A stretch of 64,000 nucleotides of DNA from the sequence record NC_129898.1; one strand, written 5' to 3'. The position numbers and the translations under genes were made by a program. Below are positions 45,074-49,132 of the stretch, piece after piece. The DNA is from a phage. The notes below the pieces were generated by a model. The model had not been told where the DNA came from. It did not search any database and saw only the letters and a program-made list of their open reading frames with translations. How positions within the stretch are numbered: position 1 is the stretch's first letter; each line of letters opens with the position of its first letter.

Positions 45074-45424
45074 TTACTGCAATAGTTTTTCAATAGCCGC
45101 TTCCATGCTGCTTGCAACAGCCTGAACTCGGATATTCATCTCTTCTTGGTGGATCAGCTCCTTAAGCTCTTTAATGGTAAATTCTTTAGAGAAACCTTCT
45201 ACCATAATCTTGTGTAAGGCTTCTTGCGTGTCTACCTGCAAGAACTTTTCCAGTTTGTTGGCAGAGGCTTCTAAATCAGCCCGAATACGAGGGTCATCTG
45301 TGCGATTCAGCATCAGGCGTAAGCCATCAAGATTAGTAGAAATAGCGTCTGCATGTTGAGTAACTAATCGTGGCAAAATGAGATCTACAAACTTATTAGC
45401 CAAATCGATACGTTCTTGTGTCAC
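45074..45424 (-). CDS. hypothetical protein (116 aa)
   Basis: GTG start overlapping upstream stop (GTGA). Confidence 0.45.
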   Translation of the reverse strand: MTQERIDLANKFVDLILPRLVTQHADAISTNLDGLRLMLNRTDDPRIRADLEASANKLEKFLQVDTQEALHKIMVEGFSKEFTIKELKELIHQEEMNIRVQAVASSMEAAIEKLLQ

Positions 45425-45534
45425 TGTTGCACCCCCTCTTCATCCTCATGATGTTTCTTTTCACGCTTGTGTTTTTTCTTAAGCTCAAGCGCAATCTCTT
45501 TTTTGTACGCCTTCTTCAAGGCCTTTTTAGCCAT
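45421..45534 (-). CDS. hypothetical small basic protein (37 aa)
   Basis: GAGGAGG RBS before ATG 45534; Lys-rich; below ORF-track cutoff. Confidence 0.35.
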   Translation of the reverse strand: MAKKALKKAYKKEIALELKKKHKREKKHHEDEEGVQQ

Positions 45535-45596
45535 TTGGCACCTCCTCTGCTTTCATTACGCTAATTATAACCAACTTAACAAGACTTTGTCAACAA

Positions 45597-46070
45597 TTAG
45601 TCAACCTGAACCCAACCGCCTGCTACCTTTTTAAACATTCTTTGGTTATCACTGCCTCGGAATGGTTTCTTGGTTGGTAAATCTTTTACATACTTTCCAT
45701 CAATGACGATATCAGCCAGTTTAAGAACATCACTAGAGATATGCTCAAATGTGAACCCAGTATACACAAGAATAGTTTTCTTGTCACCAAACTTTTCCTT
45801 AATTCTCCTCATAAGGTTGATAATATCTGGCTCATTATAAGTAGCCAAAGGCTCTCCACCAAGTAAAGAAATACCGCATACAGATTCATTGTCTAAATCC
45901 AACAAAATTTTCTGCAAATCTTCTTCGGTGAACTCTCTTCCTTTATCTTTTGACCAAAATGCTTGATTAAAGCAACTGGGACAAGCGTGTGGGCACCCAG
46001 ATACCCACAAAGCTGTCCTAATACCTGGCCCCTCGGTGTAAGATATCTCTGTATACCCGACAATATTCAT
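45597..46070 (-). CDS. nrdG: anaerobic ribonucleotide reductase activating protein (radical SAM)
   Basis: GCPHACPSC cysteine cluster near N-terminus; next to nrdD; start set to ATG 46070. Confidence 0.75.
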   Translation of the reverse strand: MNIVGYTEISYTEGPGIRTALWVSGCPHACPSCFNQAFWSKDKGREFTEEDLQKILLDLDNESVCGISLLGGEPLATYNEPDIINLMRRIKEKFGDKKTILVYTGFTFEHISSDVLKLADIVIDGKYVKDLPTKKPFRGSDNQRMFKKVAGGWVQVD

Positions 46071-46183
46071 ACATACTCCGCATCGCATTTAGGACAATGC
46101 CAAATAAAATCGTCCAGTGCCTTACACCAACGAAGATTGCAATGACAACCACACTTGCAAATTTTATAAATACCTGTAGACAT
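46067..46183 (-). CDS. hypothetical small Cys-rich protein (38 aa)
   Basis: AGGAGG RBS; four Cys pairs; stop overlaps nrdG start (ATGA). Confidence 0.4.
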   Translation of the reverse strand: MSTGIYKICKCGCHCNLRWCKALDDFIWHCPKCDAEYV

Positions 46184-46246
46184 GCTGCACCTCCTAGTTT
46201 ACTGTGTGACAACAATATGCAACATCCTTGTGACTTTTGTCAAGTA

Positions 46247-47209
46247 TCAGCAACCACAACTTCCGTAGTGCTTAACCCGTTCTATAACCTCCGCTTGCTT
46301 ACCTTTATTGTAAGGACGGGAGTTTGGACTGGACAGATACCCGGATACACGTCTAATCACACTGATCGTTCCCTCTTCATGGTTTCCACACTCTGGGCAT
46401 ACAAAGCCTTTAGCTGTTGCACTGAACTCACCAGAGAATCCACACTTAAGACATTTATCCACAGGCTGGTTAATACCAAAATACATAATGTGTTTATATC
46501 CGAAATCAACAAGAGCTTCCAAAGCATCTAAGTTGTTTTTCAGATTTGGTGTCTCTATGTACCCAATGTTGCCACCAGAGGAGATCATAGCAAAACCTTC
46601 CTCATACTTCCACTTATCAAAAGGCGAGCTATTGATCCATACTGGCTGATGGAAACTGTTGGTGAGGTATTCATGCTCGTGCTTCAACACTTCTGGGTAT
46701 TCACGATCCAGACAGGTTGCAGCTTTATAGCATAAACTCTCAGAAGGTGTGCCGTACAAGCTAAATGCTAGTCCACTTTCCTTCTTGTATCGCTCACAAG
46801 CATCTTTCATGTGCTGAAGGATTCCAAGAGCTAAAGCCTTGTCACCCTCTCTGCCCAAAATCTGACAGGTTTCATACACACCAATATACCCAATACTGAT
46901 GGAAGCGTACCCGTCATAGAAGAGTTTATCGATACTCTCTTCAGGATCCAGGCTAGCAAGAGCTCCTTCACACCACATGATAGGGTTATGCCCTGCCTTT
47001 GTTCCTTTTAGACGGTTAACTCTTACAAGGTGAGCCTCATATGCCAAATCCAAATATTCGTCAAGAACTGCAAAGAAATCAACACCTTCCGTTTTAGCTT
47101 TTGCCGCAATCATTGGTAGGTTAAGGCTAACAACACCCAAGTTGAATCTGCCAAGGTATTTCTCCTCGCCTGTTACAGGGTCGCTATATTTCGATAAGAA
47201 ACTTCTACA
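46247..47209 (-). CDS. nrdD: anaerobic ribonucleoside-triphosphate reductase, exon 2
   Basis: Glycyl-radical motif RRVSGYL; zinc ribbon CLKCG...CPECG; begins CRSFL. Confidence 0.8.
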   Translation of the reverse strand, partial: CRSFLSKYSDPVTGEEKYLGRFNLGVVSLNLPMIAAKAKTEGVDFFAVLDEYLDLAYEAHLVRVNRLKGTKAGHNPIMWCEGALASLDPEESIDKLFYDGYASISIGYIGVYETCQILGREGDKALALGILQHMKDACERYKKESGLAFSLYGTPSESLCYKAATCLDREYPEVLKHEHEYLTNSFHQPVWINSSPFDKWKYEEGFAMISSGGNIGYIETPNLKNNLDALEALVDFGYKHIMYFGINQPVDKCLKCGFSGEFSATAKGFVCPECGNHEEGTISVIRRVSGYLSSPNSRPYNKGKQAEVIERVKHYGSCGC

Positions 47210-47971
47210 CATTATGTTCAAGGTGGTTCGCAAGGCCACCCCCGCACCATTACGTGCTGCTGCATGTCCCCATGCAGATCAGACTATATCTTCACACTTA
47301 GTGTGTCTACCATTTCGAGTGTCATCAGCTTACACCCTACACCGCTACATTCATCACGGTTAGTCGTTAGGCATTTCGTAACAGAACTCGTAATCATAGT
47401 TATTAGGTGCACCACGTTTCAGGATAGCAGATATTCTTTTTCTATCTATTCCTAAAACATCAGCACAACATCTCAGACTCTTAAAGTGAATAACCACACC
47501 AGTTAATTTGTGGGTGGCTTTCACCCCGTGACATCTTGTGTAAAAAGCATAACAGTTGTTGTCGTATCCTTCTTGAGTATTGTCTGGGCAAGCTCCCCAC
47601 TCAAGGTTGTATACGCTGTTATCTTTCCTGTTGTCACCTTTGTGCTTAACATATGGTAAATTGTCTGGATTTGGTAAAAACGCTTCAGCAACAAGTCTGT
47701 GAACCCTTAGGCAAACAGTCTTTTTGTTCTTGCGTATCCTGACAAGACGGTAACCTGTGTTTATCTCTTCCCACGAATGAATAATTCTTTCATTTTCGTA
47801 TCGGGTGCAATAAACATTGCCCATCTCGTCAATTTCATAACCTTCAAAATCACGAATTTGTTTTCTCATTTCAGGACTCCTCTTAGTCAGGAGTTCTGTT
47901 ACGTTTAGCACGGGATTGTCCGTTCTGGAGTTTCCCCGTTTAGATAGATTTTACATGAGCAGTTATAGTTT
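47210..47971 (-). mobile_element. group I intron in nrdD carrying an HNH homing endonuclease gene
   Basis: 762 nt break between ...TSMG and CRSFL...; exon ends in U, intron ends in G; HNH ORF in a different frame; P7-like GACUAA and UAGUCUGA downstream of the ORF. Confidence 0.65.
47360..47911 (-). CDS. intron-encoded HNH homing endonuclease
   Basis: HRLVAEAF...VKHKGDNRKDN...NLEW HNH core; C-terminal helix-turn-helix-like IDRKRISAILKRG; AAGAGGAG RBS. Confidence 0.8.
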   Translation of the reverse strand: MLNVTELLTKRSPEMRKQIRDFEGYEIDEMGNVYCTRYENERIIHSWEEINTGYRLVRIRKNKKTVCLRVHRLVAEAFLPNPDNLPYVKHKGDNRKDNSVYNLEWGACPDNTQEGYDNNCYAFYTRCHGVKATHKLTGVVIHFKSLRCCADVLGIDRKRISAILKRGAPNNYDYEFCYEMPND

Positions 47972-49132
47972 ACCCATGCTTGTTACTTTGCCGTCTGTTG
48001 AACCTGTCACTTTACGATTTAGTGGAACAGAAACAAAGTCAGGATAAATCCGCTCTGCAGAGCATTCTAGAGCCAATCGTTTCAAATCGTAGTTAGGATC
48101 CCCAGGGTTCATGTTGACACCCTCCTCTAAGAAGAACAGCACTTTAGGAAACACAGGGGTGATCCGTTCTTCACCAAGACCCATTTTGTGGACTTTCAAG
48201 TAGTTTTTGGTAATCATTCTACCAAAGACCGAGGTATCCAGTCCTAAACTTAATGTGATGAATGGAGTTTGCCCGTTGACAGAAGTTAACGTATTGATTT
48301 GGTAGAGCAAAGTTTGCATACTATCAAACACGTCTTTATCTGTCATTTGCATTGCAACAGTCTCAGCATCTGGCAACCAATGCTCCTGACAAAATTTAAG
48401 GTTCTTCTCATAGGTTGCTTCAGCATACTGTGCCAGATAATGATCAATATGGCTCATGGTTTGACCACCATATTGAGCACTAGCTACTGCACTAGAGATT
48501 TGGCTAAGGATTGTTGTTGCAACCCCTATTGACTTCGGCTTACTGACATGGGCGTTGCCAATGTTGAATCCGTTTTCCAGCATATCCGGATAATTTACCA
48601 AACAACAGTTTGTTAACGGACTGATCAGGTAGTCAAGATCATGCACATGGATGAAGCCTTTGTTGTGCTCTTCGGAGACACGGTCTGGCAGGATCTGTGT
48701 TGATGCAAGATGTTTGCTAAGGATGCCTGCAAGCAGGTCACGATGAGTGTGTACATGATTAGTAGGCTTATTTGCGTTTTCTTTTGTAAATTCATCACAA
48801 GTACGATCCAAGAAGCCACTAATATCTGCAAGCAGTTTTCCACCTGCCTCTCTGTTATTATCTCTTGTCTGTCTATACTGGATGTATTCTCTGGCTGCAC
48901 ATTTTAAACCCATATCCATAAGAGCATCTTCAACAAGGATATGGATATTTTTTACAGAGATCGTGCACTGGTCGGTTGGCAGATTGTTGGCAACAACTTC
49001 ATTAACCGCACAGGCAATCCGGTAAGCTTCTTCTTCAGTATGTCCAGACTCAAGTAAGGCGGACTCTGCCGCCTTGATCACCTTAATTCCGTTATAAAAC
49101 TCTTCTCTACCGTCCCGTTTTACAACTTTCAC
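47972..49132 (-). CDS. nrdD: anaerobic ribonucleoside-triphosphate reductase, exon 1
   Basis: ATP-cone-like N-terminus MKVVKRDGREEF; frame stops 3 codons after inferred splice point. Confidence 0.8.

What the first reader, a model, noticed from the sequence alone, without database searches (positions are those of the whole stretch)
45421..46183. Two unlisted mini-ORFs translationally coupled around nrdG
A 38 aa Cys-rich ORF (46067-46183, MSTGIYKICKCGCHCNLRWCKALDDFIWHCPKCDAEYV) has a strong RBS and its stop overlaps the nrdG start (ATGA). A 37 aa Lys-rich ORF (45421-45534) has a strong RBS and overlaps the next gene start (GTGA). The Cys-rich one could be a zinc-binding partner of the anaerobic reductase system.
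Basis: seen in the sequence. Interest (0 to 1): 0.4.

Follow-up and report, generated by a model that had tools for sequence, protein, structure and literature searches.

The report
Two real, already-annotated phage microprotein genes
Both tiny reading frames beside the anaerobic ribonucleotide reductase activase gene of this rV5/FV3-like E. coli phage are genuine, conserved protein-coding genes that public records already annotate as hypothetical proteins, and neither shows a specific tie to the reductase system.

Summary
The window is a Vequintavirus (98.9% identical to phage EPFV3-03/2025), with genes on the minus strand. The 38-aa Cys-rich ORF (46067-46183) and the 37-aa Lys-rich ORF (45421-45534) each follow a sigma-70-like promoter and an AGGAGGT ribosome-binding site. 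Each ends in a 4-nt stop/start overlap: ATGA with nrdG, GTGA with a 116-aa gene.

Both are under protein-level purifying selection. For the Cys ORF, window vs a distant lineage gives 11 synonymous and 4 non-synonymous changes (p=2e-8), and all 7 Cys are invariant. For the Lys ORF, 13 of 16 variable sites are third codon positions.

Neither is new: many GenBank records annotate them, and they match phrog_20137 and phrog_7670.

The reductase-partner idea is weakly supported.
- About 2,100 phage records carry nrdG, but only about 120 carry the Cys ORF.
- rV5-type genomes separate the Cys ORF from nrdG.
- Podovirus ACG-C91, which has no nrd genes, carries it in front of DNA ligase.

The Lys ORF belongs with the downstream 116-aa gene. 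The pair recurs in Mydovirus and Henunavirus, in Hena1 with no nrdD or nrdG between the glutaredoxin gene and the pair. Function remains unknown.

The parts
46214..46243 (-). Sigma-70-like promoter (TTGACA-18-CATATT, 10 of 12 matches) between the nrdD stop and the Cys-rich ORF.
   Evidence: This is a consensus match only; transcription was not tested.
46189..46195 (-). Shine-Dalgarno AGGAGGT, 5 nt upstream of the ATG of the Cys-rich ORF.
   Evidence: Read. An AGGAGG-type SD (AGGAG in some lineages) is kept in every Vequintavirus-like locus examined.
46067..46183 (-). Cys-rich microprotein gene (38 aa, 7 invariant Cys, zinc-ribbon-like), member of phrog_20137.
   Evidence: (E=6e-30). dN is far below dS: 11 synonymous vs 4 non-synonymous changes against L013 (p=2e-8). 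Every Cys codon toggles TGT/TGC without an amino-acid change. Intact in 24 of 26 distinct genomes.
46076..46079 (-). GGAG Shine-Dalgarno for nrdG, embedded in the last codons (A-E-Y) of the Cys-rich ORF.
   Evidence: The same site is annotated as the RBS of the NrdG gene in phage Murica.
46067..46070 (-). ATGA stop/start overlap between the Cys-rich ORF and nrdG.
   Evidence: Present in 17 loci that hold a copy, absent in 8 rV5-type loci.
45597..46070 (-). nrdG (class III RNR activase, radical SAM). The true start is the ATG at 46070, not the longer ORF start at 46088.
   Evidence: Fer4_12, 7.7e-42. The N-terminus MNIVGY aligns with the starts of all homologs.
45564..45593 (-). Sigma-70 consensus promoter (TTGACA-18-TATAAT, 12 of 12 matches) upstream of the Lys-rich ORF.
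   Evidence: The rV5 record annotates a sigma-70-type promoter 'P118' in the same nrdG / Lys-ORF intergenic position.
45540..45546 (-). Shine-Dalgarno AGGAGGT, 5 nt upstream of the ATG of the Lys-rich ORF.
45421..45534 (-). Lys-rich microprotein gene (37 aa), member of phrog_7670. It has a conserved basic N-terminal motif and a variable acidic tail.
   Evidence: E=2e-20; 13 of 16 variable sites at codon position 3, p=1e-4. Positional homologs occur in L023, L012/L013, Mydovirus and Henunavirus. For the N-terminal 20 codons pN is 0.18-0.41 against pS 0.63-1.1.
45421..45424 (-). GTGA stop/start overlap between the Lys-rich ORF and the 116-aa gene.
   Evidence: A tight junction is kept in every lineage, though its sequence differs: GTGA, ATGA, TAATG, an 8-nt overlap in Hena1 and a 14-nt overlap in L012.
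45074..45424 (-). 116-aa all-helical protein (phrog_7650), the conserved downstream partner of the Lys-rich ORF.
   Evidence: AF2 pLDDT 83, four helices. No significant fold match in the PDB.

Best explanation
Both mini-ORFs are genuine, translated microprotein genes of an rV5/FV3-like Vequintavirus.

Shown:
- Each is the first cistron behind a sigma-70-type promoter match and carries a consensus AGGAGGT ribosome-binding site.
- Each ends in a 4-nt stop/start overlap with the next gene.
- Each evolves under purifying selection on its amino-acid sequence.

Inferred for both: a ribosome finishing the microprotein re-initiates on the overlapping start codon, so the two products are made together. 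The 3' codons of the Cys-rich ORF also carry the GGAG ribosome-binding site for nrdG.

Inferred for the Cys-rich product (phrog_20137):
- It is most likely a small metal-binding protein of the zinc-ribbon type, with an N-terminal CxC/CxxC-G-C-x-C knuckle, a C-terminal CPxC knuckle and 7 invariant Cys.
- It behaves as an autonomous, exchangeable early-gene cassette rather than an obligate reductase subunit. It keeps its sequence next to three different downstream neighbours: FV3-type nrdG, an rV5-type insert, and the DNA ligase of a podovirus.
- It probably acts by binding a conserved target that has not been identified. Candidates are NrdD, a host protein or a nucleic acid.

Inferred for the Lys-rich product (phrog_7670):
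- It is a short basic peptide, probably helical, with a conserved N-terminal motif M-[AS]-K-[KR]-x-L-[KR]-K-[AL]-Y-x-[KR]-E-[IL]-A-[LM]-x-[LH]-[KR] and an acidic, variable tail.
- It forms a conserved two-gene module with the helical 116-aa protein, with which it most likely associates.
- It has no specific link to nrdG.
For: Identity and annotation:
- 98.9% DNA identity to Escherichia phage EPFV3-03/2025 and 98% to FV3.
- Both ORFs are annotated in many records.
- PHROG matches: phrog_20137 at E=6e-30 and phrog_7670 at E=2e-20.

Coding selection on the Cys ORF:
- 28-codon core, window vs L013: 11 synonymous, 4 non-synonymous (Fisher p=2e-8).
- Vs L012 p=5e-9; vs ACG-C91 p=4e-5.
- All 7 Cys codons alternate TGT/TGC with no amino-acid change.
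- Variable sites by codon position are 7/3/19.

Coding selection on the Lys ORF:
- Variable sites by codon position are 1/2/13 (p=1e-4). These fall on first positions of the overlapping antisense ORF, which is therefore not supported.
- For the N-terminal 20 codons across four lineages, pN is 0.18-0.41 against saturated pS.

Synteny and coupling:
- The Cys ORF lies between nrdD and nrdG with a 4-nt overlap in the window lineage, in L023 and in the uncultured L012/L013/L027 lineage. NrdG is only 50-53% identical in L012/L013.
- The Lys ORF always abuts or overlaps the 116-aa homolog, including in Mydovirus and Henunavirus, where that protein is only 26-29% identical.

Expression signals: promoter matches directly upstream of each ORF.

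Autonomy of the Cys gene:
- It is about 90% identical across two nrdG alleles that are 52% identical.
- It is uncoupled from nrdG in rV5-type genomes.
- In ACG-C91 it occupies, ORF for ORF, the slot that holds a different 38-aa zinc-ribbon ORF in K1E, in front of DNA ligase.
Against: - There is no direct expression evidence. The only proteomics I found for this phage group covers virion proteins (PMC3606486).
- Metal binding is inferred from the Cys pattern alone. There is no Pfam or NCBIfam hit, PDB sequence matches are insignificant (best E=0.23), and the AF2 model is poor (pLDDT 53).
- Re-initiation coupling is inferred from geometry. nrdG and the 116-aa gene each also have their own SD-like sequence, so they may be translated independently.
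- Phage nimi carries a TGA at the first Cys codon, so the Cys protein may be dispensable in the laboratory.
- Conserved nrdD-X-nrdG synteny in three lineages still allows a reductase-related role.
- The Fisher tests treat sites and pairs as independent, which they are not strictly.
Confidence: 0.8

Rival explanations
1. The Cys-rich microprotein is a dedicated accessory subunit of the phage class III ribonucleotide reductase. For example, it could be a Zn or Fe site that stabilises, assembles or supplies electrons to NrdG or NrdD.
For: - It lies between nrdD and nrdG in every Vequintavirus-like genome examined and in the divergent L012/L013/L027 lineage, usually with a 4-nt overlap onto nrdG.
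- Its WxCPxC knuckle resembles rubredoxin and zinc-ribbon knuckles, including the one in the NrdD C-terminus.
- Its high conservation parallels the highly conserved NrdD C-terminus.
Against: - 2,116 phage records encode NrdG homologs, but only about 120 carry this ORF. A phage with adjacent nrdD-nrdG (L007) lacks it.
- Eight rV5-type loci put two other ORFs between it and nrdG.
- It does not co-vary with the two nrdG alleles, which are 52% identical.
- ACG-C91 has no nrd genes and keeps the ORF intact, with all 7 Cys, in front of DNA ligase.
- The PHROG label 'ribonucleotide reductase' looks like naming by neighbourhood. The K1E slot ORF likewise hits a family labelled 'DNA ligase'.
- hhalign against the NrdD zinc ribbon gives a probability of 11%.
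Confidence: 0.15
2. The mini-ORFs are only translational devices (leader cistrons). Their sole role is to load ribosomes onto nrdG and the 116-aa gene, and the peptides themselves have no function.
For: - Each is a first cistron after a promoter match, with a much stronger SD than the downstream gene and a 4-nt overlap.
- The downstream 116-aa gene uses a weak GTG start.
- The acidic tail codons of the Lys ORF and the AEY codons of the Cys ORF double as the downstream SD.
Against: - Amino-acid sequence is strongly conserved while synonymous sites are saturated.
- The Cys ORF is retained intact where it is not coupled to anything (rV5-type loci).
- The N-terminal motif of the Lys ORF is conserved across genera better than the protein it precedes.
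Confidence: 0.05
3. The frames are chance ORFs in regulatory intergenic DNA (promoter, terminator or 5' UTR) and are not translated.
For: - The Murica record annotates a terminator inside the Cys ORF and does not call the ORF.
- FV3 RefSeq and ACG-C91 do not annotate the Cys ORF.
- ORFs of about 38 codons are common by chance (one search lists many).
Against: - The substitution pattern is codon-periodic in exactly these frames.
- The ORFs stay open across lineages whose synonymous sites are saturated.
- No significant RNA structure: z = -0.15 and -1.1.
- No minus-strand terminator in the scan and no Rfam family over either ORF.
Confidence: 0.02

Closest known systems
PHROG families phrog_20137 (Cys-rich) and phrog_7670 (Lys-rich), that is, the 'hypothetical protein' genes already annotated in rV5-like phages (for example MaxBurger bas54_0177 and bas54_0175, and rV5 gp113).
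   Same: Full-length profile matches (E=6e-30 and 2e-20), the same genomic position and the same length.
   Different: Nothing differs; these are the same genes. The 'ribonucleotide reductase' label of phrog_20137 has no experimental basis that I could find, and it probably comes from neighbourhood-based naming in some RefSeq records.
One-domain zinc-ribbon microproteins, such as the small CPxCG-related zinc-finger proteins of Haloferax volcanii (PDB 8q5b; NCBIfam HVO_0758 family) and LysW.
   Same: Size of 38-55 aa. Two Cys knuckles of the CxxCG / CPxC type separated by a short beta region. The low-confidence AF2 model shows three short strands.
   Different: - No significant sequence relationship: E=0.23; 10.6 bits against a cutoff of 70.
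- Seven Cys rather than four.
- The first knuckle is CxC in the 38-aa form and CxxC in the 41-54-aa forms.
- Phage origin, and metal binding is untested.
The K1E-type 38-aa zinc-ribbon ORF in the nucleotide-kinase / DNA-ligase slot of Vectrevirus podoviruses.
   Same: Same length class, two Cys knuckles (CPNCG...CHSCD), the same ATGA overlap onto the next gene, and the same slot that the Vequintavirus-type ORF occupies in ACG-C91.
   Different: No detectable sequence homology: tblastn did not link them and they fall in different PHROGs. K1E has only four Cys.
Classical translationally coupled gene pairs with ATGA or GTGA overlaps. By general knowledge these are common in E. coli operons such as trp and throughout tightly packed phage genomes. 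The rV5 paper describes its ORFs as 'closely packed or overlapping' (PMC3606486).
   Same: A 4-nt stop/start overlap, with the SD for the downstream gene inside the upstream coding sequence.
   Different: Nothing unusual. Here the upstream cistron happens to be very short.
nrdD-nrdG operons of T4-like and other phages and of E. coli.
   Same: The same two enzymes; nrdD is interrupted by a group-I-intron-like element with a homing endonuclease gene, as in T4.
   Different: Those operons have no small Cys-rich ORF between nrdD and nrdG. In L007 the two genes are 15 nt apart, and about 94% of nrdG-bearing phage records lack the ORF.

Membership tests
phrog_20137 | Full-length match to the family profile. 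| tested here: met
   E=6.3e-30, residues 1-38 on profile positions 1-38 of 38.
phrog_7670 | Full-length match to the family profile. | tested here: met
   E=2e-20, residues 1-37 on profile positions 1-37 of 46.
Zinc ribbon (structural class) | Two Cys knuckles (CxxC-type) on either side of a beta-hairpin. | tested here: inconclusive
   - The C-terminal CPxC knuckle is invariant.
- The N-terminal knuckle is CxxC in the long forms but CxC in the 38-aa form.
- The AF2 model has strands at 21-24, 27-30 and 35-37 but a pLDDT of only 53.
Zinc ribbon (structural class) | Binds one Zn (or Fe) through four Cys. | not testable with these tools
   This needs metal analysis of purified protein.
Rubredoxin and other Pfam zinc-finger families | Significant profile match. 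| tested here: not met
   No Pfam family even at E<=10. The only rubredoxin-like resemblance is the WHCPKC knuckle, which also produced a spurious metagenome hit in a larger unrelated protein.
HVO_0758 / small CPxCG zinc-finger protein family | NCBIfam NF041912 score at or above 70 bits. | tested here: not met
   10.6 bits, E=0.42, and only for the 53-aa variant. The PDB 8q5b match has E=0.23.
Class III RNR system component (obligate partner of NrdD/NrdG) | Co-occurs with nrdD/nrdG across phages and is absent from genomes without them. | tested here: not met
   2,116 records have an NrdG homolog against about 120 with the ORF. The ORF is present in ACG-C91, which has no nrd genes.
Class III RNR system component (obligate partner of NrdD/NrdG) | Physical or functional interaction with NrdG or NrdD. 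| not testable with these tools
   Complex prediction and experiments were not available.
Translationally coupled cistron pair | The stop codon of the upstream ORF overlaps or abuts the start codon of the downstream ORF, with the SD inside the upstream ORF. | tested here: met
   ATGA at 46067-46070 with GGAG at 46076-46079; GTGA at 45421-45424. The Lys / 116-aa junction stays tight in five lineages.
Translationally coupled cistron pair | Downstream translation depends on upstream translation. | not testable with these tools
   This needs reporter fusions or premature-stop mutants.

The most novel reading that the evidence does not exclude
The Cys-rich microprotein could be a previously unrecognised third component of a phage anaerobic ribonucleotide reductase. 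It would be a 38-aa metal (Zn or Fe-S) protein that binds the conserved NrdD C-terminal glycyl-radical / zinc-ribbon region or the activase. This would explain its fixed position between nrdD and nrdG in three lineages and its extreme sequence conservation. In that case the ACG-C91 copy would act on the host NrdDG.
Probability: 0.12. Interest if true: 0.55.

Novelty: already known. Interest (0 to 1): 0.2.

Why it matters
Mostly this matters as a clean-up result.

- Two small frames a gene list skipped are real genes. Public annotation and PHROGs already contain them, so nothing new is added to the catalogue.
- Some public records could be corrected:
  - FV3 RefSeq starts nrdG 18 nt too early and omits the Cys ORF.
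  - Murica places a terminator inside the Cys ORF.
  - ACG-C91 leaves its copy unannotated.
  - The 'ribonucleotide reductase' label of phrog_20137 is unsupported.
- Two modest biological points deserve a specialist's attention:
  - A 7-Cys microprotein under very strong constraint exists, as far as I found, only in Vequintavirus-like phages and one podovirus. In the podovirus it sits in the slot that holds a different zinc-ribbon micro-ORF in K1E.
  - A basic peptide is coupled to a helical 116-aa protein across at least four Vequintavirinae lineages.
- Both are tractable candidates for phage microprotein function studies, but neither challenges current understanding.

Tried and rejected
- **Pfam** at E<=10, and **NCBIfam**: nothing for either microprotein.
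- **PDB sequence/profile search** for the Cys family: only insignificant zinc-ribbon knuckle matches.
- **AF2 of the Cys protein** with a 10-sequence alignment: pLDDT 53, too poor for a fold search, so none was run.
- **Remote homologs of the Cys family:**
  - A profile search of 1.84 billion representative proteins found only two real clusters plus one spurious repeat protein.
  - IMG/VR and metagenome DNA scans found only Vequintavirus-like contigs, ACG-C91, and one spurious match to a WHCPKCD knuckle inside a larger unrelated protein.
- **Origin of the Cys ORF by duplication of the NrdD C-terminal zinc ribbon:** hhalign probability 11%, rejected.
- **Structured RNA or riboswitch reading:** folds are no better than shuffles, and no Rfam family overlaps either ORF.
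- **tblastn with the Lys peptide:** no match, probably because BLAST's low-complexity filter masks so Lys-rich a query. I found its distant homologs through the neighbouring 116-aa protein instead.
- **Function of the 116-aa partner:** the AF2 model is good (pLDDT 83, four helices), but there is no significant PDB fold match (best E=0.49; DUF2059 at TM 0.54). That line gave no functional lead.
- **Literature:** no paper found on these ORFs. The rV5 proteomics covers virions only.
- **The antisense 48-aa ORF 45418-45564 (+) and the longer nrdG start at 46088:** rejected on substitution pattern and on alignment of homolog N-termini.
Full report
**What the window is**

The region is 98.9% identical to Escherichia phage EPFV3-03/2025 and 98% identical to phage FV3. 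121 phage records match it at 90% identity or more, essentially all of them Vequintavirus, the rV5-like myoviruses of E. coli.

All genes here run on the minus strand. The order is:
- glutaredoxin
- nrdD, split by an HNH endonuclease gene
- the Cys-rich ORF
- nrdG
- the Lys-rich ORF
- a 116-aa gene
- phoH
- a ClpP-like protease

**Checking the observation**

Cys-rich ORF, 46067-46183:
- It starts at the ATG at 46183.
- AGGAGG lies at 46195-46190, followed by T and a 5-nt spacer.
- Its TGA (46069-46067) overlaps the nrdG ATG (46070-46068).

Lys-rich ORF, 45421-45534:
- It has the same AGGAGGT-plus-5-nt geometry (45546-45540).
- Its TGA overlaps the GTG (45424-45422) of the 116-aa ORF.

The longer nrdG reading that starts at 46088 is used in the FV3 RefSeq record. 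It is not supported: every homolog begins at the equivalent of 46070, with MNIVGY, MNVVNI, MNICGY or MNYIKI.

A promoter scan places sigma-70-type matches directly upstream of each mini-ORF:
- TTGACA-18-TATAAT (12 of 12) at 45593-45564.
- TTGACA-18-CATATT (10 of 12) at 46243-46214.

The rV5 record annotates a sigma-70-type promoter in the same nrdG / Lys-ORF intergenic position. The rV5 paper reports 33 such host-type promoters spread over the genome (PMC3606486). So each mini-ORF is the first cistron of a likely host-polymerase transcript.

**Are the ORFs 'unlisted'?**

Not publicly.
- Both are annotated as hypothetical proteins in EPFV3, MaxBurger, HdK5, WalterGehring, V18, Phage 203, phita32 and JEP1. 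rV5 and FV3 annotate the Lys ORF.
- Both match PHROG profiles over their full length: phrog_20137 (E=6e-30) and phrog_7670 (E=2e-20).
- Some records miss the Cys ORF: FV3 RefSeq, nimi, Murica and ACG-C91.

**Is the Cys-rich ORF really coding?**

I read the locus in 26 distinct related genomes and contigs.
- The ORF is intact in 24 of them.
- Phage nimi has a TGA at the first Cys codon.
- Phage Alma has a frameshift in the last codons. Alma also has frameshifts in nrdG and in the Lys ORF, so assembly error is likely.

The substitution evidence is as follows:

| Comparison (28-codon core) | Synonymous | Non-synonymous | Fisher p |
|---|---|---|---|
| window vs L013 | 11 | 4 | 2e-8 |
| window vs L012 | 12 | 5 | 5e-9 |
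| window vs ACG-C91 | 9 | 6 | 4e-5 |

- There are about 14 synonymous and about 70 non-synonymous sites in this core.
- Each of the seven Cys codons alternates between TGT and TGC, and the amino acid never changes.
- Within the 38-aa class, variable sites by codon position are 7/3/19.

This is protein-level purifying selection, not DNA-level conservation.

**How widespread is the Cys-rich family?**

It is very narrow.
- A word-indexed search of 5.8 billion proteins returned 10 clusters.
- An exhaustive profile search of 1.84 billion 50%-identity representatives returned only two real clusters.
- DNA-level scans of IMG/VR and of JGI metagenomes found only Vequintavirus-like contigs and ACG-C91.
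- Longer forms of 41-54 aa carry a Lys/Glu-rich N-terminal extension and a CxxC first knuckle instead of CxC.

**Is the Cys-rich protein tied to the anaerobic reductase?**

Evidence for:
- The gene sits between nrdD and nrdG in Vequintavirus, in a second lineage (L023, where the 116-aa protein is 66% identical) and in an uncultured sister lineage (L012/L013/L027).
- In that sister lineage nrdD is only about 74% identical at the DNA level and NrdG is 50-53% identical at the protein level.
- It usually overlaps nrdG by 4 nt.

Evidence against:
- Within Vequintavirus there are two nrdG alleles only 52% identical to each other, yet the Cys protein is about 90% identical next to both.
- In the rV5-type arrangement (8 loci that hold a copy) the Cys ORF ends in TAA. 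About 150 nt and two other ORFs (34 aa and 78 aa, the latter phrog_3249) follow before nrdG. There it is not coupled to nrdG, and it is still intact.
- 2,116 phage records encode an NrdG homolog at E<=1e-20, against about 120 with the Cys ORF. An unrelated phage contig has nrdD and nrdG 15 nt apart with nothing between them.
- The SP6-like podovirus vB_EcoP_ACG-C91 has no annotated nrd genes but carries an unannotated, intact copy. That copy is 74% identical at the protein level, keeps all 7 Cys, and matches phrog_20137 at E=5e-23.
- The ACG-C91 copy lies between the nucleotide-kinase-like gene (DUF3310) and an ATP-dependent DNA ligase, again with an ATGA overlap.

The ACG-C91 case looks like a cassette swap:
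- In the close relative K1E the same slot holds a different 38-aa zinc-ribbon ORF, MTCPNCGSEETEHVVMSDTYHFYFCHSCDTTIEEEEAV.
- In Mt1B1_P10 the slot holds an unrelated 57-aa ORF.
- ACG-C91 and K1E match, apart from single-base differences, up to the micro-ORF ATG and again from TATGAATAT onward.
- The nrdG genes of the window and of L013 share that same TATGAATAT, and both proteins start MNI.
- This looks like a precise ORF-for-ORF exchange through microhomology.

I therefore read the Cys-rich gene as an autonomous, portable microgene, not an obligate reductase subunit.

**What is the Cys-rich protein?**

- Seven invariant Cys are arranged as C-x(1-2)-C-G-C-x-C-x4-C-x9-C-P-x-C. This fits a zinc-ribbon core, with three further Cys of unknown role.
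- No curated family matches.
- The best PDB sequence matches are insignificant and are all to zinc-ribbon mini-proteins: the small CPxCG zinc finger 8q5b (E=0.23), LysW and eL43.
- The AF2 model has three short strands but a pLDDT of only 53.
- A profile comparison with the NrdD C-terminal zinc ribbon aligns only the knuckles, at 11% probability.
- Metal binding is therefore a reasonable inference, not a result.

**The Lys-rich ORF**

Within Vequintavirus:
- It is almost invariant. 13 of 16 variable sites fall on third codon positions (binomial p=1e-4).
- These same sites are first positions of the overlapping antisense 48-aa ORF, which is therefore not the selected frame.

At greater distance, a mini-ORF sits in the same position in every lineage examined:

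| Lineage | Locus | Mini-ORF length | 116-aa homolog identity |
|---|---|---|---|
| Second lineage | L023 | 37 aa | 66% |
| Uncultured sister lineage | L012/L013 | 41-44 aa | 33% |
| Mydovirus (Klebsiella phages) | L021 | 46 aa | 29% |
| Henunavirus (Erwinia phage Hena1) | L022 | 49 aa | 26% |

- All share the N-terminal motif M-[AS]-K-[KR]-x-L-[KR]-K-[AL]-Y-x-[KR]-E-[IL]-A-[LM]-x-[LH]-[KR]. L012/L013 carry a two-residue insertion and a looser match.
- Over the first 20 codons pN is 0.18-0.41 while pS is saturated.
- The C-terminal tail is variable and mostly acidic. In some lineages its codons double as the SD of the next gene.
- The junction with the 116-aa homolog is always tight, but its sequence differs: GTGA, ATGA, TAATG, an 8-nt overlap in Hena1 and a 14-nt overlap in L012.
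- In Hena1 the pair follows the glutaredoxin gene directly, with no nrdD or nrdG between them.

So this ORF is tied to the 116-aa gene (phrog_7650), not to nrdG. The 116-aa protein models confidently as four helices (pLDDT 83), but it has no significant fold match in the PDB. The pair's function stays unknown.

**Other readings considered**

- Neither 5' region folds better than shuffled controls (z = -0.15 and -1.1).
- No Rfam family overlaps the ORFs.
- The terminator annotated inside the Cys ORF in the Murica record is not reproduced by the scan. It also conflicts with the codon-level conservation.

**Mechanism, with what is shown and what is inferred**

Shown:
- The ORFs, ribosome-binding sites, promoter matches and overlaps.
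- Purifying selection on both peptides.
- The synteny patterns.

Inferred:
- Both are translated early from host-type promoters.
- Terminating ribosomes re-initiate on nrdG and on the 116-aa gene, giving co-expression.
- The Cys product is a metal-binding zinc-ribbon microprotein that acts on a conserved, unidentified target (my estimate for metal binding is about 0.7).
- Its role does not depend on the phage reductase (about 0.6).
- The Lys product, probably helical from its composition, associates with the 116-aa protein (about 0.5).

**Verdict**

However, they are ordinary, already-catalogued phage microgenes, and the proposed reductase link is weak. Interest is low (0.2) and novelty is 'already known'.

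Noticed in passing
window 47240-47962 (minus strand), between nrdD parts 47963-49132 and 46247-47239: nrdD is split by an insert that carries an HNH homing-endonuclease gene (47360-47911). The insert also gives a group-I-intron match at 47260-47494 (Rfam RF00028, E=1.2e-5, below the gathering score). MaxBurger annotates the equivalent nrdD as a two-piece join, and L023 has an uninterrupted 706-aa nrdD.
   Followed up: partly
L008 1618-2005 (rV5); also L014, L015, L017, L018, L029, L030: Vequintavirus has two nrdG alleles only 52% identical in protein sequence. The rV5-type allele comes with a ~390-bp insert that holds a 34-aa Lys-rich ORF and a 78-aa ORF (phrog_3249, mislabelled 'minor capsid protein' in some records). 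The 78-aa ORF is the one that overlaps nrdG there.
   Followed up: partly
L005 279-1439, L015 460-1452, L019 1737-2672, L012 2279-2971: The short spacer between nrdD and the Cys-rich ORF is a hot spot for free-standing homing-endonuclease genes. Typing phage 14 and WalterGehring have GIY-YIG/T5orf172-type genes there and L012 has an HNH/DUF723 type. JEP1 has a 311-aa ORF in the same position that I did not classify.
   Followed up: partly
L034 699-815 (K1E), L035 ~699-872 (Mt1B1_P10), L004 2998-3108 (ACG-C91): Vectrevirus podoviruses have a variable micro-ORF slot between the nucleotide-kinase-like gene and DNA ligase, always ending in an ATGA overlap. Three unrelated small ORFs occupy it in three phages. 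The shared TATGAATAT at the start of ligase and of Vequintavirus nrdG looks like the recombination junction.
   Followed up: partly
L011 1525-1527 (phage nimi, MN850626): The first Cys codon of the Cys-rich ORF is TGA in this otherwise intact, plaque-forming phage. This is either a sequencing error or evidence that the microprotein is dispensable in the laboratory.
   Followed up: no
window 45466-45477 (A-rich run AAGAAAAAACAC inside the Lys ORF); L010; P0014, P0015: Variants with indels in this A-run exist. Alma and P0015 (seen on 3 contigs) are frameshifted to a 45-aa product that reads into the 116-aa gene, and P0014 has two extra Lys. This could be homopolymer sequencing error or real slippage.
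   Followed up: no
and one search hit lists (MG0656xx records): About 18-19 records named 'Campylobacter phage' with host Campylobacter jejuni are 93-94% identical to E. coli Vequintavirus across this locus. They are probably mislabelled or contaminant sequences.
   Followed up: no
NC_019517.1 (FV3 RefSeq) 88713-89204; window 46070-46088: The FV3 RefSeq nrdG starts 18 nt too far upstream (MRCGVCMNIV...), overlapping the unannotated Cys ORF. Several RefSeq records name the 38-aa ORF 'ribonucleotide reductase', which is probably the source of the phrog_20137 label.
   Followed up: partly
window 45074-45424 (minus strand) and homologs L021 2465-2845, L022 2447-2857: The 116-aa protein (phrog_7650) is conserved across at least four Vequintavirinae lineages, next to phoH or separated from it only by an endolysin gene. 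It models as a confident four-helix protein with no significant PDB fold match, so it is an uncharacterised conserved early protein.
   Followed up: partly
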